Notes: generated by a model from the letters alone, not told the origin. DNA of 64,000 nucleotides from Trypanosoma brucei (GCA_000002445.1 CP000069.1:1152001-1216000); one strand, 5' to 3'. Positions 8,056 to 64,000 are shown, numbered from the stretch's first letter. Translations and numbers: made by a program.

Positions 8056-9261
8056 GGTGTGTACTTCCCTAACCTTCGTCTTACTTTAAATATGTAAGCT
8101 ACTCCAATCCAGCGATGGTGCGAGATTAGTCGTCATCAATTCGTTAAAAGAAAAAAAAAGTAGCAGTTGACAGAAAGCGGGAACAGAGTCAAGTAACCTA
8201 CGCATGGGGAATGCAACATAGCGTAGCAGATGCGGTAAAAAAAAATCACAAAATATTCCCATGACACCGTTTGACAACCATCACCCCCGAGGGAACTGGA
8301 ACAACACTACGTTATCGACAAGATGGCGTGCCTCATCGGCACTAATGTCATACCCATGCGTCTATAAAATTAGTGCTTTACTTTTTCCTCCTTGCCCACT
8401 ACCGGAATTACAACCCCAGCATCCACACCCTCAGCCTCAATGTCATAGTTGTTTGTTTGTTTTTTTCTTTGACCCACCCCCAAATCTTCATAATCACTGA
8501 CACAAATTGACCTTCTAATTACATATTTGTAATCCATCTCCCCCCCTCCACACACAAACACACACCACCACATCCTCTGAGAGTCTTCTTATTCCTACAT
8601 GGCAAAACCCAGATGCAGGCAGCTTCAAAAGAACATTCATTGAAGACTCGCATCTTTGGTCTCCAAAGCCAGCGAAAGTGTTCAACGCGTTCACAATCAT
8701 ATACATTGGAACAAAAAGGAAAGTGTGGTTTGTGCGTCCGACAACGCCCTGCACGACGTACACGGTGTACAGAAAATGTGCAGACAAACAAGACAATAAC
8801 ACGTAAAAATAAAGATAACAATGCCCCACAGCACTCCCGCCATCACTTTGTAAGGGTTGCACAAATAACATGGCGCACACCTCCAATGTTGAGCAGCGGG
8901 GCCGTGACGAACACAACACCAATCCCCCTTAGCTAATGGCGCAAGTGGTTGGTGCCACAATATTCGCGGTGAGATGTACCCAATTCAGGAACGCATTAGT
9001 AAATCGTTCCTTGACTTCGGAGGCACCGTTCCCGCACACGCATATAGGGAGAAATGCGGCAACCAAGAAAGGCAAGATAAAAAAAAAAACGAACAGGCTC
9101 CGTGTACCACACCGTATGAATAACGATGACAAGACATCTCCTCTTGCATAAAGAAAATATAAATGAGATCCACCAACACAAGAGTCAATGTGGAGACAAG
9201 TTCTAGGAAACACAGAGATTAGTGAATTATGTCTGCCACACACACACACCCTTCCCCAATC

Positions 9262-9753
9262 CTAACGGCGATATTCCTCGTCACTTATACTGTTCAGTTC
9301 ACGTGTCCTCATGACCGGTTTGTTGCGCTTCGTGCTCATAATACCACGCTCATTCAACTTCATGTTTGTTTTGGGTGGCTCACCGTTTCGAACGGACTTC
9401 AAGCGCGAAATTTGTTTGTTCTTCGAGTCCAACTTTTCCTTCACCTTCCCAGTGGGAATGCGAACCCCACGGAGAACACCAGGCCCGGAGAGTTCAACTT
9501 CCACGCCAACTGGAGCTTCCAATGTCACGTCCTCCGAACTGTCACACGACTCAAAGACCTCAGTAACGAGGGGCGCATCTTTTTCAGTAATGAATGACGT
9601 GGGTTCCAGTTCAATTACTTGAAGATGCTCGGGGAAAAAATGATCGCTTTCCTCAGAATCACTGTGGTAATGACGACGCAGTGACGACAATCGGTTACCG
9701 CTGTGGTCACTGCGCGAGTTGCGGGGGTTGGGATTGTCCCGTGGATCCTCCAT
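9262..9753 (-). CDS. Hypothetical protein (163 aa). Ser/Asp/Glu-rich and basic.
   Basis: The listed start at 9771 is TTG. The first ATG is at 9751-9753 (MEDPRDNPNP...). No motif recognised. Confidence 0.4.
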   Translation of the reverse strand: MEDPRDNPNPRNSRSDHSGNRLSSLRRHYHSDSEESDHFFPEHLQVIELEPTSFITEKDAPLVTEVFESCDSSEDVTLEAPVGVEVELSGPGVLRGVRIPTGKVKEKLDSKNKQISRLKSVRNGEPPKTNMKLNERGIMSTKRNKPVMRTRELNSISDEEYRR

Positions 9754-61252: not shown

Positions 61253-61816
61253 TCACCTCACGTCCAGAAAATACATATGATCCGGTGGAGGCCCCAGGAA
61301 GGCTTTCCAGAGAGAGTCTTTTAGAGCAGTCATCAATTCTTCCTTAAAGGTGTCCGTCTGTAGACCGTCTAAGGCGGCATCCCCAAGGAAACGCAAGACG
61401 GGAGTAGGATATACTTGAGGATCTGCAATGACATCTCTCCCAATATCCTTTGCCATACTAACGAGTTCATCCGCCACCCATGAATCACAAATAAGGTCCT
61501 CAACGACAAATTTCCGTAGAGCCCGTACGGTCTGCTCATTTGCAGTGAATTCGGTGATCGCGTAGGCCTTCAGATGATTTATAAATGACGGGTGCGTACT
61601 CACATCCTTTACGAAGCTGACAAGCCGTCCGAGTGAATCTTCATTACGAACAAGAACGTTGTCAACCACTTCACTAGAAAGCGCTACTGCTGCTAGACGT
61701 AAAAGTTCCCTATTCTTCTCAGCTTGCTGTCCCAACACTTCCCACCGCTTGCGCAACAGACCTGCAGCACCGAAAACACCAACAGAAGAAAGGGCCAACT
61801 TCATCAGTGAAACCAT
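61253..61816 (-). CDS. Hypothetical protein (187 aa) with an N-terminal hydrophobic anchor. Possibly mitochondrial inner membrane.
   Basis: ATG at 61814-61816. N-terminus MVSLMKLALSSVGVFGAAGLLRKRW is a TM/anchor-like segment. The rest is a soluble helical domain. Confidence 0.45.
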   Translation of the reverse strand: MVSLMKLALSSVGVFGAAGLLRKRWEVLGQQAEKNRELLRLAAVALSSEVVDNVLVRNEDSLGRLVSFVKDVSTHPSFINHLKAYAITEFTANEQTVRALRKFVVEDLICDSWVADELVSMAKDIGRDVIADPQVYPTPVLRFLGDAALDGLQTDTFKEELMTALKDSLWKAFLGPPPDHMYFLDVR

Positions 61817-62156: not shown

Positions 62157-62867
62157 CTACACTTTTTGTGGCACACCGATGCTAAACGCATGGAAATTCT
62201 TCGGGTTGTAATCTCCGCTCCTAAACAGCACGCCGCCAGCGGCGGAGCCGTAGTAAGATGCCCATACTGTCGTTTCCGCCTTTCCTAACGAGCCCTTCTC
62301 GACGCAGCTGGCGCAATTATTATTAACACCATTACCAATACAAAAAGCATCAGACGAAAGGAGGCACTGGTTTCGTTCGCACGTGGGAAAGAAACCGGTA
62401 TCAGTTGGGTAGGAAGCATTACCCGCGTATGTGTATAGTCCCTGCTTCATGGAGAGATTAAGAATGAGAAATTTCGCAACCGCTAAACTGTCACTTTTGC
62501 ATTTATCCGATGTTGTTGCATACAAGACTGAGTTGGAAAGGTCCCCTGTACGATTTCCACTCTCACCCTGTCCGTATACACTGATCGTGTAACTGGATCC
62601 CACTGTTTTGTTTACTAGTGATGGAAACAATCCAGTCAGACGAAAAGCCTGCACTTCATCCACAATAGGGCAGAACCCCAAGGCACTGATATTACCGGAC
62701 GCCGAATCCCGCACACCAACACGGAGATCCATTCTCTGGGCACCGTTGCATGGTTTACCTCCATCCCACGGCTGACATGCGCTGCCGCTAGTGCAGTTAT
62801 TCGCTTCTGAAACCACTGCGGTGGTAGTGAAAACACACACAACAACAAGCACTTCAGCAAACCACAT
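62157..62867 (-). CDS. Secreted/surface cysteine-rich glycoprotein (236 aa) with a signal peptide. Tandem paralog of the next gene.
   Basis: ATG at 62865-62867. Signal peptide MWFAEVLVVVCVFTTTAVVSEA. 12 Cys. Many N-x-S/T sites. The C-terminal half is alignable to ORF 63539..64000 (GFFPTCERNQC...NCASC...VWASYYGS vs GFRPTCDESDHC...NCGAC...VWTSYQGT). Confidence 0.6.
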   Translation of the reverse strand: MWFAEVLVVVCVFTTTAVVSEANNCTSGSACQPWDGGKPCNGAQRMDLRVGVRDSASGNISALGFCPIVDEVQAFRLTGLFPSLVNKTVGSSYTISVYGQGESGNRTGDLSNSVLYATTSDKCKSDSLAVAKFLILNLSMKQGLYTYAGNASYPTDTGFFPTCERNQCLLSSDAFCIGNGVNNNCASCVEKGSLGKAETTVWASYYGSAAGGVLFRSGDYNPKNFHAFSIGVPQKV

Positions 62868-63538
62868 AACTGAGAGTAGCCAAGAAAAAGAAACTGTACG
62901 CGAAAGACGAAAAAGAAAACGGACATAAGTAAATCGATGAAAAGTACACAGTAGTAAACCCCGAGAGATAAGTATTTTCGTTTTTACAAAAAAAAAAACA
63001 GCAACGGGAGTTACTTCACCAAAAGGTGCAGGAAGCGGGAATGCACGACACGTAGCGAGACGAAAACTTCAACGTAGCCCCATCAGCCTCTCGGAAGGGG
63101 CACTGCCTAAACTCACACACGACAATAACCACGAAATAACAAAGGTGAAAAAAAAAAACGCACACAATCCTCATCACAGTTCTCCTACCCAGAAACAATT
63201 GCAGTCACATTCACACACGAAGAAAATGCAGATCCTCCCCAGACAAATACACACACACACACACACACGTCGTCAGGGGCCTATAACACAAACAACACCG
63301 CATCACTGCGCATATTCCTCTCCCTACACCAGTGTTGCATATCTTGCACGAACGAAAGGTGAGTTTTGCTAGTTTCAAAAAAGCTTCTATAAACAACACT
63401 ATGCAAAGATTTCGCTTAAAAAAAGTTCGCCCATGAGCACGTACATTCTTGGACTAAGCAATAGGATATCAACACCACCGAAAGTGGAAACAGGACTAGT
63501 TAGGACAAGCAAACGTGTGTGCACATCATTCCACATTT

Positions 63539-64000
63539 CTATGGAGTCGAGTTTGTTTCATCTCCCGGCATCATACCACTGGCAGTATTCTCAATTTTGC
63601 TCACAGCATACTTAATATTGCCAACAAACTTGCCGCCGGCAAATTTCCTGAAACCCATTGGATCCATACCACCACTGAGCAGCGGCTGCCTCTCGAGGTC
63701 CGTCCCTTGGTATGAAGTCCATACCTGAATGCTCGCCCCCTCAATATCATCAGGGGTATTATAACAAGCTCCGCAATTTTTCATCCCACGGATGGGGCCA
63801 ACACATGGACTTGTGGGTGAGAAAATACAATGGTCCGACTCGTCACATGTAGGACGGAATCCTACCATCGCCGGTTGCACAGATTCCATCGGTGAGCCGG
63901 TGCCTGAGGAATTCCCTGAAGGAATACCCGATTCACTGTCGTCTGGCTCCTTGGTGTCTGCGTCACTTGAAATGTAATTGAACTTCCCATCGTGCATCCC
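63539..64000 (-). CDS. Partial (5' end truncated by the window edge) paralog of the cysteine-rich secreted protein at 62157..62867.
   Basis: The ORF is open to the window end. Conserved Cys spacing and the shared GF.PTC / NC.AC / VW.SY.G motifs match the upstream neighbour. Confidence 0.55.
   Translation of the reverse strand, partial: GMHDGKFNYISSDADTKEPDDSESGIPSGNSSGTGSPMESVQPAMVGFRPTCDESDHCIFSPTSPCVGPIRGMKNCGACYNTPDDIEGASIQVWTSYQGTDLERQPLLSGGMDPMGFRKFAGGKFVGNIKYAVSKIENTASGMMPGDETNSTP

What the first reader, a model, noticed from the sequence alone, without database searches (positions are those of the whole stretch)
62157..64000. Tandem pair of divergent paralogous cysteine-rich secreted glycoproteins at the window edge
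Gene 62157..62867 has a clear signal peptide, 12 Cys and many N-glycosylation sequons. The partial ORF 63539..64000 shares its Cys spacing and several motifs (GF.PTC, NC.AC, VW.SY.G, SG...F) at low overall identity. That pattern says an old tandem duplication of a secreted or surface family. The array may continue beyond 64000. Neither gene shows an obvious GPI signal or TM in the visible part. I could not place the family by eye.
Basis: seen in the sequence. Interest (0 to 1): 0.55.

Follow-up and report, generated by a model that had tools for sequence, protein, structure and literature searches.

The report
Conserved secreted cysteine-rich gene pair
The two reading frames are real, anciently duplicated neighbouring genes of Trypanosoma brucei (Tb927.6.4250 and Tb927.6.4260) that encode soluble, secreted-type, disulfide-rich glycoproteins of an uncharacterised family shared by kinetoplastids and diplonemids; they are annotated, so this is an ordinary finding with a modest open question about function.

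Summary
Gene 62157..62867 (-) is T. brucei TREU927 XP_845543.1, which I place as Tb927.6.4250 (236 aa). The edge ORF 63539..64000 (-) is the exact C-terminal 153 residues of a 323-aa protein, Tb927.6.4260.

- **Similarity:** BLASTP gives E=6e-9 for the visible part and 2e-21 over the full length (30% identity). Both proteins have a signal peptide and ten mature cysteines at homologous positions.
- **Array size:** the array stops at two genes. The next genes are NDUFS6 and the glycosomal GAPDH pair.
- **Age:** the pair lies in the same order and synteny in T. melophagium and in a metagenomic trypanosomatid. A four-copy array occurs in another environmental kinetoplastid-like contig.
- **Family:** an exhaustive phmmer search found 89 cluster representatives, including a prokinetoplastid and diplonemids. 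No member matches Pfam and no PDB sequence matches.
- **Anchoring:** no member has a C-terminal hydrophobic tail, so TM and GPI anchoring are unlikely.
- **Published proteomics:** Tb927.6.4260 is in the bloodstream-form surface-labelled proteome.

The most likely reading is a pair of soluble flagellar-pocket or surface-associated binding proteins. Their function is untested.

The parts
62157..62867 (-). Complete CDS (236 aa plus stop) of the 'short' paralogue, T. brucei TREU927 XP_845543.1 / Q586Z2, which I place as Tb927.6.4250
   Evidence: ORF. It is 100% identical to XP_845543.1 'hypothetical protein, conserved'. The gene number is inferred: the published Tb927.6.4240 primer maps to the next gene downstream.
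62802..62867 (-). Codons 1 to about 22: N-terminal hydrophobic signal peptide (MWFAEVLVVVCVFTTTAVVSEA); the exact cleavage site is not determined
   Evidence: Kyte-Doolittle maximum of 2.54 in the first 35 residues. Listed as SignalP-positive with 0 TM in Table S6 of PMC3224696.
62175..62408 (-). Codons 154-231: the most conserved, Cys-rich C-terminal part (GFxPTC, C168, C176-IG, N-C185-xx-C188, VWxSYYG, SGxxNPxNF)
   Evidence: Aligned with the second gene.
62868..63538 (-). Intergenic spacer. On the coding strand it has T-rich tracts followed by AG just upstream of the ATG at 62867 (about 62868-63010), and a (GT)10 microsatellite at 63249-63268
   Evidence: Sequence read on the minus strand; TRF. 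Reading the tracts as a trans-splice acceptor is an inference from established trypanosome gene structure.
63539..64000 (-). Last 153 codons plus stop of the 'long' paralogue (323 aa), which I place as Tb927.6.4260. The first 170 codons, including the signal peptide, lie beyond the window
   Evidence: Exact C-terminus of P0068. Full gene seen in T. b. gambiense locus L002 at 8353-9324. Nine peptides and 33% coverage in PMC4587319.

Best explanation
The region holds two ancient tandem paralogues, Tb927.6.4250 (236 aa) and Tb927.6.4260 (323 aa). They belong to a family so far seen only in Euglenozoa (kinetoplastids and diplonemids), made of soluble extracytoplasmic glycoproteins.

**Shown or directly computed**
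- Each protein starts with a signal peptide.
- Each has ten mature cysteines at family-conserved positions, enough for five disulfides.
- Each carries N-glycosylation sequons.
- Neither has a membrane-spanning segment, a hydrophobic GPI-type tail or a KDEL-like ending.
- The predicted fold is a beta-sandwich (about residues 45-145) capped by a highly conserved Cys-rich C-terminal part.

**Inferred mechanism**
- The proteins enter the ER, are cleaved, oxidised and glycosylated.
- They leave by the default secretory route into the flagellar pocket.
- There they stay non-covalently associated with the surface or pocket matrix. This would fit Tb927.6.4260 being pulled down with surface-labelled proteins and neither protein appearing in a published secretome.
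- The conserved C-terminal face (GFxPTC, NCxxC, SYYGTD, SGxxNPxNF) would be the interaction site of a binding module rather than a variable antigen.

The two copies have diverged. The long one has a low-complexity insert. The T. brucei short one has lost the near-invariant Asp of the GTD motif. They probably do related but not identical jobs.
For: - **Identity and paralogy:**
- **Array of exactly two, next to NDUFS6 and GAPDH:**
- **Conserved pair and synteny:** T. melophagium; a metagenomic trypanosomatid, plus a four-copy array elsewhere. Short and long clades separate in the tree, with Apiculatamorpha and diplonemids outside.
- **Family size and range:** 89 representatives at E<=1e-3 and 66 at E<=1e-10. 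Named members come from T. vivax, T. congolense, T. melophagium, Apiculatamorpha, Artemidia and a EukProt sequence labelled 'Hpha'.
- **Soluble secreted architecture:** N-terminal hydrophobic peak above 2 in nearly all full-length members; no C-terminal hydrophobic stretch among full-length members (only a 155-aa fragment and one 377-aa protein with an aberrant tail exceed 1.2); varied C-termini.
- **Cys framework and invariant residues:**
- **Structure:** model with pLDDT 86.6 and pTM 0.82.
- **Published protein evidence:** Tb927.6.4260 has 108 PSMs and 9 peptides, is seen in 4/4 labelled and 0/3 unlabelled preparations, shows 15-fold enrichment and is listed in the 'Surfeome' sheet. Tb927.6.4250 has 3 peptides (PMC4587319). 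Both are SignalP-positive, and neither ID occurs in any other held supplementary file of PMC3224696, which include the experimental secretome lists.
Against: - No localisation experiment for either protein was found. The held TrypTag and hyperLOPIT supplements did not contain the IDs.
- Tb927.6.4260 was also detected in the 'dead cell' controls, and no fluoresceinated peptide was recorded. Surface exposure is therefore suggestive, not proven.
- Tb927.6.4250 was not enriched; it had a higher signal in one unlabelled control.
- Conserved polar residues (D70, T162, N184, Y205, D209, S217) could equally mark a catalytic site.
- Nothing tested here distinguishes a pocket/surface location from an endosomal or lysosomal lumen.
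Confidence: 0.5

Rival explanations
1. The proteins are luminal residents of the endomembrane system, for example a lysosomal or endosomal cofactor or hydrolase or a Golgi factor. They reach the flagellar pocket only in transit, and the surface-proteome signal reflects that transit.
For: - They are soluble, with a signal peptide, glycosylation sequons and disulfides.
- They are conserved in free-living or non-trypanosomatid Euglenozoa, which suits a housekeeping organellar role.
- Neither ID occurs in the held secretome files.
- The authors of PMC4587319 note that endosomal and lysosomal proteins can appear in the surface proteome.
Against: - There is no KDEL-type ending.
- The lysosomal marker p67 and the ER marker BiP were depleted from the same preparations in which Tb927.6.4260 was 15-fold enriched.
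Confidence: 0.25
2. The proteins are secreted enzymes of an undescribed fold, for example acting on glycans or lipids. The invariant Asp, Tyr and Ser residues would form the active site. The T. brucei short paralogue would be a partly degenerate copy.
For: - Invariant or near-invariant polar residues D70, T162, N184, Y205, D209 and S217 persist across about 75 divergent sequences.
- Tb927.6.4250 alone replaces D209 with Ala, while its T. melophagium orthologue keeps GTD.
Against: - No Pfam, PDB-sequence or fold match to any enzyme family was found.
- Most invariant positions are Cys, Gly and Pro, which are typical of structural constraint.
Confidence: 0.15
3. The genes belong to a parasite-specific, expanding cell-surface antigen family of African trypanosomes, the comparison the first reader proposed, with more copies beyond the window.
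For: Signal peptide, sequons and a tandem arrangement. Fairly fast evolution: 41-47% identity between T. brucei and T. melophagium, against 64-91% for the neighbouring kinase, NDUFS6 and GAPDH.
Against: - There are only two copies, flanked by housekeeping genes.
- There is no TM or GPI tail.
- Homologues occur in a prokinetoplastid and in diplonemids.
- The cell-surface-phylome column is blank for Tb927.6.4260 in PMC4587319.
Confidence: 0.03
4. The proteins are divergent homologues of the beta-sandwich proteins that topped the structure search, such as EMC10, Erv41 or the T. cruzi surface membrane protein TcSMP. They would act as luminal subunits of a membrane complex.
Against: - The family profile finds no PDB sequence even at E<=10.
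- From my own knowledge, EMC10 and TcSMP carry a C-terminal membrane segment. This family lacks one.
Confidence: 0.04

Closest known systems
Database entries XP_845543.1 / Q586Z2 (placed here as Tb927.6.4250) and the 323-aa protein P0068 (placed here as Tb927.6.4260), both 'hypothetical protein, conserved'
   Same: They are identical sequences. The window genes are these entries.
   Different: Nothing differs. The records carry no function, no domain and no family name.
Orthologues in T. vivax (G0TX87), T. congolense (G0UP05) and T. melophagium (XP_067187186.1 and its unnamed neighbour)
   Same: Same Cys framework and motifs. T. melophagium has the same long-then-short order and the same flanking genes.
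   Different: Identity is only 41-47%. The T. brucei short copy has lost the conserved Asp of the GTD motif.
ER membrane complex subunit 10 (EMC10; PDB 8j0o_J) and other beta-sandwich ectodomains (ENaC/ASIC, PAC, Piezo cap, Erv41p)
Trypanosome surface glycoprotein families (ISG, ESAG, Fam families of the cell-surface phylome)
   Same: Signal peptide and N-glycosylation sequons. One member is recovered with surface-labelled proteins of bloodstream forms.
   Different: There is no anchor. There are only two copies. The family is conserved outside trypanosomatids, and no phylome family is assigned.

Membership tests
Uncharacterised Euglenozoa 10-Cys secreted family (defined here by the phmmer hits) | Significant full-length sequence similarity to the other members | tested here: met
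   phmmer found 66 representatives at E<=1e-10. The family HMM scores the loci copies at E 1e-64 to 1e-95. The HMM was built from A2, which contains the short protein and the window's 153-residue part of the long one, so their own scores are partly by construction.
Uncharacterised Euglenozoa 10-Cys secreted family (defined here by the phmmer hits) | Conserved cysteine framework and motifs (FCPxVD, GFxPTC, CIG, NCxxC, SYYGTD, SGxxNPxNF) | tested here: met
   All ten mature Cys are present in both T. brucei proteins. Deviations are A209 and a missing Pro in Tb927.6.4250, and Q268 and D283 in Tb927.6.4260.
Uncharacterised Euglenozoa 10-Cys secreted family (defined here by the phmmer hits) | N-terminal signal peptide and no membrane anchor | tested here: met
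   Hydropathy scan of 90 sequences. SignalP-positive in published tables.
African-trypanosome cell-surface families (VSG-like, ISG, ESAG, Fam families) | GPI signal or transmembrane anchor | tested here: not met
   The maximum hydropathy of the last 30 residues is -0.11 (Tb927.6.4250) and 0.03 (Tb927.6.4260).
African-trypanosome cell-surface families (VSG-like, ISG, ESAG, Fam families) | Lineage-restricted multigene expansion | tested here: not met
   There are two copies, flanked by NDUFS6/GAPDH and Tb927.6.4240. Homologues occur in Prokinetoplastina and Diplonemea.
Any Pfam-A family (including thaumatin-like and EMC10 families) | Score above the gathering threshold against the family HMM | tested here: not met
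   No hit at E<=1 for either window protein. None at E<=0.01 in 72 members, apart from one disordered-repeat hit. None at E<=10 in 10 members, apart from one chance-level DUF6094 hit.
PF28132 (DDB_G0273449 family) | Reproducible HMM match | tested here: inconclusive
   A 'faint' precomputed hit is recorded on the first copy of the four-gene array in L007/L008. hmmscan at E<=10 did not reproduce it. HMMER's filters may drop such weak matches, and I could not inspect the family itself.

The most novel reading that the evidence does not exclude
The family is a previously undescribed extracytoplasmic fold that predates the split of kinetoplastids and diplonemids. The conserved long/short pair would work together, for example as a heterodimer, as a soluble ligand-binding or matrix component of the flagellar pocket. 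That would make it a conserved, non-variant, host-exposed component in bloodstream trypanosomes.
Probability: 0.15. Interest if true: 0.55.

Novelty: new variant of a known kind. Interest (0 to 1): 0.3.

Why it matters
As it stands, little changes. Both genes are already annotated as conserved hypothetical proteins, and a two-gene tandem of secreted glycoproteins is commonplace in trypanosome genomes.

The value is in the clean-up.
- The pair is not the edge of a surface-antigen array.
- It is an old, syntenic duplication of a family that reaches back to diplonemids.
- The family has no Pfam model and no solved structural relative.
- One member has been recovered from the bloodstream-form surface-labelled proteome.

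If the proteins prove to be invariant, host-accessible flagellar-pocket components with a new fold, they would interest pocket biologists and could serve as invariant antigens. That step is untested.

Tried and rejected
- **Word-index protein searches:** these were uninformative. Gene 1 found only itself, the partial ORF found nothing, and the family alignment found only 4 proteins because of the candidate cap.
- **Single-sequence AlphaFold:** it gave a useless model (pLDDT 33.7). Only the 81-sequence alignment gave a usable one.
- **AlphaFold-database fold search:** the library was not available.
- **Gene numbering:** my first guess (Tb927.6.4310-4340) was wrong; Tb927.6.4330 is TelAP1. I corrected it from the published Tb927.6.4240 primer and the NDUFS6 table.
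- **Held supplements without the gene IDs:** TrypTag, hyperLOPIT, the cell-surface phylome (only one small file held) and an excreted-protein study. The bloodstream-form tagging paper has no held supplements.
- **Text searches:** strain-427 IDs and UniProt accessions found nothing, and neither did PF28132/DDB_G0273449.
- **Plus-strand ORFs** in the region are all 75 aa or shorter, and I did not pursue them.

Full report
**1. What is in the sequence**

On the minus strand there is a complete ATG-to-stop ORF of 236 aa at 62157..62867. A second ORF ends at 63539 and runs off the window at 64000. All plus-strand ORFs in the region are 75 aa or shorter.

BLASTP of the two translations gives E=6e-9 (27/82 identities).

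**2. Identity of the genes**

The 236-aa protein is 100% identical to XP_845543.1 / Q586Z2, 'hypothetical protein, conserved', of Trypanosoma brucei brucei TREU927. That record lies on a contig of 1,618,915 bp. A one-residue variant occurs in T. b. gambiense and in a second T. brucei-group assembly.

I inferred the gene numbers from the literature.
- A published reverse primer for Tb927.6.4240 (PMC2916883) maps once, to 61325-61344, inside the 187-aa gene just downstream.
- Tb927.6.4270 is listed as NDUFS6 (PMC8312217).
- Counting between these two, the 236-aa gene should be Tb927.6.4250 and the edge ORF Tb927.6.4260.
- This fits the peptide coverage and descriptions for those IDs in PMC4587319.

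**3. Extending past the window edge**

The syntenic T. b. gambiense locus (L002) shows the second gene in full. It encodes 323 aa with its own hydrophobic N-terminus. The window's 153 residues are the exact C-terminus of P0068, a 323-aa protein that is 99.7% identical to the gambiense copy.

Full-length BLASTP between the paralogues gives E=2e-21, with 30% identity across the entire mature proteins. Both have eleven cysteines: one in the signal peptide and ten at homologous mature positions.

The short protein has six N-x-S/T sequons and the long one has four. Upstream of the long gene lie an unrelated 236-aa protein and then the GAPDH genes. The array therefore consists of exactly two genes and does not continue.

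**4. Age of the duplication**

- T. melophagium has the same arrangement: a 317-aa 'long' gene, a roughly 250-aa 'short' gene, then the 187-aa gene, a kinase and an aldehyde dehydrogenase.
- A trypanosomatid-like metagenomic contig has 297-aa and 251-aa copies in the same context.
- Another environmental contig has four tandem copies (302, 299, 298 and 278 aa) between a PI-PLC gene and a 183-aa gene.
- A 3.3-Mb contig of unknown origin has a single copy.

In a neighbour-joining tree the last gene of each array groups with Tb927.6.4250 and the T. vivax protein. The other copies group with Tb927.6.4260 and the T. congolense and T. melophagium long proteins. The Apiculatamorpha and diplonemid sequences fall outside both groups.

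The tree has no support values, so this is indicative only. Still, position in the array and tree placement agree. The duplication predates the divergence of the sampled Trypanosoma species. It probably happened within the kinetoplastids.

**5. The family**

An exhaustive phmmer search of 1.84 billion cluster representatives returned 89 proteins at E<=1e-3 and 66 at E<=1e-10. Named members come from these sources:
- T. vivax, T. congolense and T. melophagium;
- the prokinetoplastid Apiculatamorpha spiralis;
- the diplonemid Artemidia motanka;
- a EukProt transcriptome labelled 'Hpha', which I take to be Hemistasia; that reading is my assumption.

The remainder come from unnamed metagenome and SRA assemblies.

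Alignments give this consensus: CxPW...C...LRF...FCPxVDxLQAF...VYGxG...C...FLVLNxT...GFxPTC...C...CIG...NCAxC...VWxSYYGTDxxGRxLxSGxxNPLNFRxF. The invariant residues are D70, G143, G158, C163, C168, C176, C185, G207, S217 and P222, in Tb927.6.4250 numbering.

The T. brucei short copy departs from the near-invariant Asp of GTD (A209), while its T. melophagium orthologue keeps it. Both genes evolve fairly fast. Identity between T. brucei and T. melophagium is 41-47%, against 64-91% for the neighbouring kinase, NDUFS6 and GAPDH.

**6. Comparison with known families**

- No Pfam-A family matches either protein at E<=1.
- None of 72 members matches at E<=0.01, apart from one disordered-repeat hit.
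- Ten members scanned at E<=10 gave only a chance-level DUF6094 hit.
- A 'faint' precomputed PF28132 mark on one environmental copy was not reproduced.
- The family profile finds no PDB sequence at E<=10.

AlphaFold2 with the 81-sequence alignment gives a confident model (mean pLDDT 86.6, pTM 0.82). It has about seven strands between residues 48 and 141. The C-terminal part adds further strands and short helices.

The N-terminal half is thus a generic beta-sandwich. The whole protein has no convincing solved relative. AFDB libraries were unavailable, so I cannot say whether the fold is new among predicted structures.

**7. Topology**

I ran a hydropathy scan of the 90 sequences P0001-P0090, that is the 89 phmmer hits plus the gambiense variant P0002.
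- Nearly all full-length members have an N-terminal hydrophobic peak above 2.
- Full-length members have no hydrophobic stretch in the last 30 residues. The values are -0.11 for Tb927.6.4250 and 0.03 for Tb927.6.4260. Only a 155-aa fragment and one 377-aa protein with an aberrant tail exceed 1.2.
- C-terminal sequences vary and show no KDEL-like motif.

The '1 TM' and the GPI score of 0.89 given for Tb927.6.4260 in published tables are best explained by the signal peptide and by predictor noise. Both proteins are SignalP-positive in Table S6 of PMC3224696.

**8. Experimental evidence in the literature**

In the bloodstream-form surface-labelling study (PMC4587319), Tb927.6.4260 has 108 PSMs, 9 peptides and 33% coverage. 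It was detected in all four labelled samples and in none of the three unlabelled controls. It is 15-fold enriched and listed in the 'Surfeome' sheet, with no cell-surface-phylome family. It was also seen in the dead-cell controls, and no fluoresceinated peptide was recorded.

Tb927.6.4250 has three peptides and is not enriched. It also appears in an affinity eluate in PMC8509533.

The gene IDs occur only in the SignalP prediction table of PMC3224696, not in its other held supplementary files, which include the experimental secretome lists. I found no localisation, knock-down or biochemical study.

**9. Interpretation**

Shown:
- The region holds two translated, paralogous genes.
- They encode signal-peptide-bearing, Cys-rich proteins with sequons and no anchor.
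- They belong to an old family known so far only from Euglenozoa.

Inferred:
- The proteins follow the classical secretory route.
- They form five disulfides and are N-glycosylated.
- They end up in the flagellar pocket or on the surface as soluble, non-covalently retained proteins.
- Their conserved C-terminal face binds a partner.

The main rival is a luminal endosomal or lysosomal role. A secreted enzyme of a new fold cannot be excluded.

**10. Verdict**

The feature is an already annotated gene pair of unknown function, so it is not a surprise. Interest is modest. It rests on the absence of any sequence or solved-structure relative, together with conservation from trypanosomes to diplonemids and the presence of one member in the bloodstream-form surface proteome.

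Noticed in passing
window 61253..61816 (-): This 187-aa gene is Tb927.6.4240; the published primer maps at 61325-61344. PMC2916883 reports it as an example of stage-dependent differential trans-splicing. It keeps its position directly after the Cys-rich array in every syntenic locus examined (181-191 aa), and it is also SignalP-positive in PMC3224696 Table S6.
   Followed up: partly
window 63249..63268: A perfect (AC)10 / (GT)10 microsatellite lies in the spacer between the two paralogues.
   Followed up: no
L007 6950-11115 and L008 4162-8327: An environmental (JGI metagenome) contig of 63% GC carries four tandem family members (302, 299, 298 and 278 aa) at the syntenic place, preceded by PI-PLC. 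Copies 2 and 3 are very similar to each other, so there has been a recent local expansion in that organism. The organism was not identified.
   Followed up: partly
L003 5363-7528 versus L002: In T. melophagium a PI-PLC gene sits between NDUFS6 and the long paralogue. T. brucei has no gene there. This is a small synteny difference next to the array.
   Followed up: no
L007 6950-7858: The collection's precomputed annotation marks a 'faint' hit of Pfam PF28132 (DDB_G0273449 family) on one family member. It was not reproduced by hmmscan at E<=10. It may still be a lead to relatives outside Euglenozoa.
   Followed up: partly
window 63542..64000 (-): The word-index protein search with the window's exact 153-residue C-terminus of Tb927.6.4260 returned nothing, although the full protein (P0068) is in the exhaustive library. 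This looks like a tool-sensitivity quirk rather than biology.
   Followed up: yes
PMC4587319 supplementary 'Surfeome' sheet: Tb927.6.4330 is described elsewhere as the telomere-associated protein TelAP1. In this sheet it appears with 123-fold enrichment and a signal-peptide probability of 0.99. That is an odd combination and unrelated to this finding.
   Followed up: no
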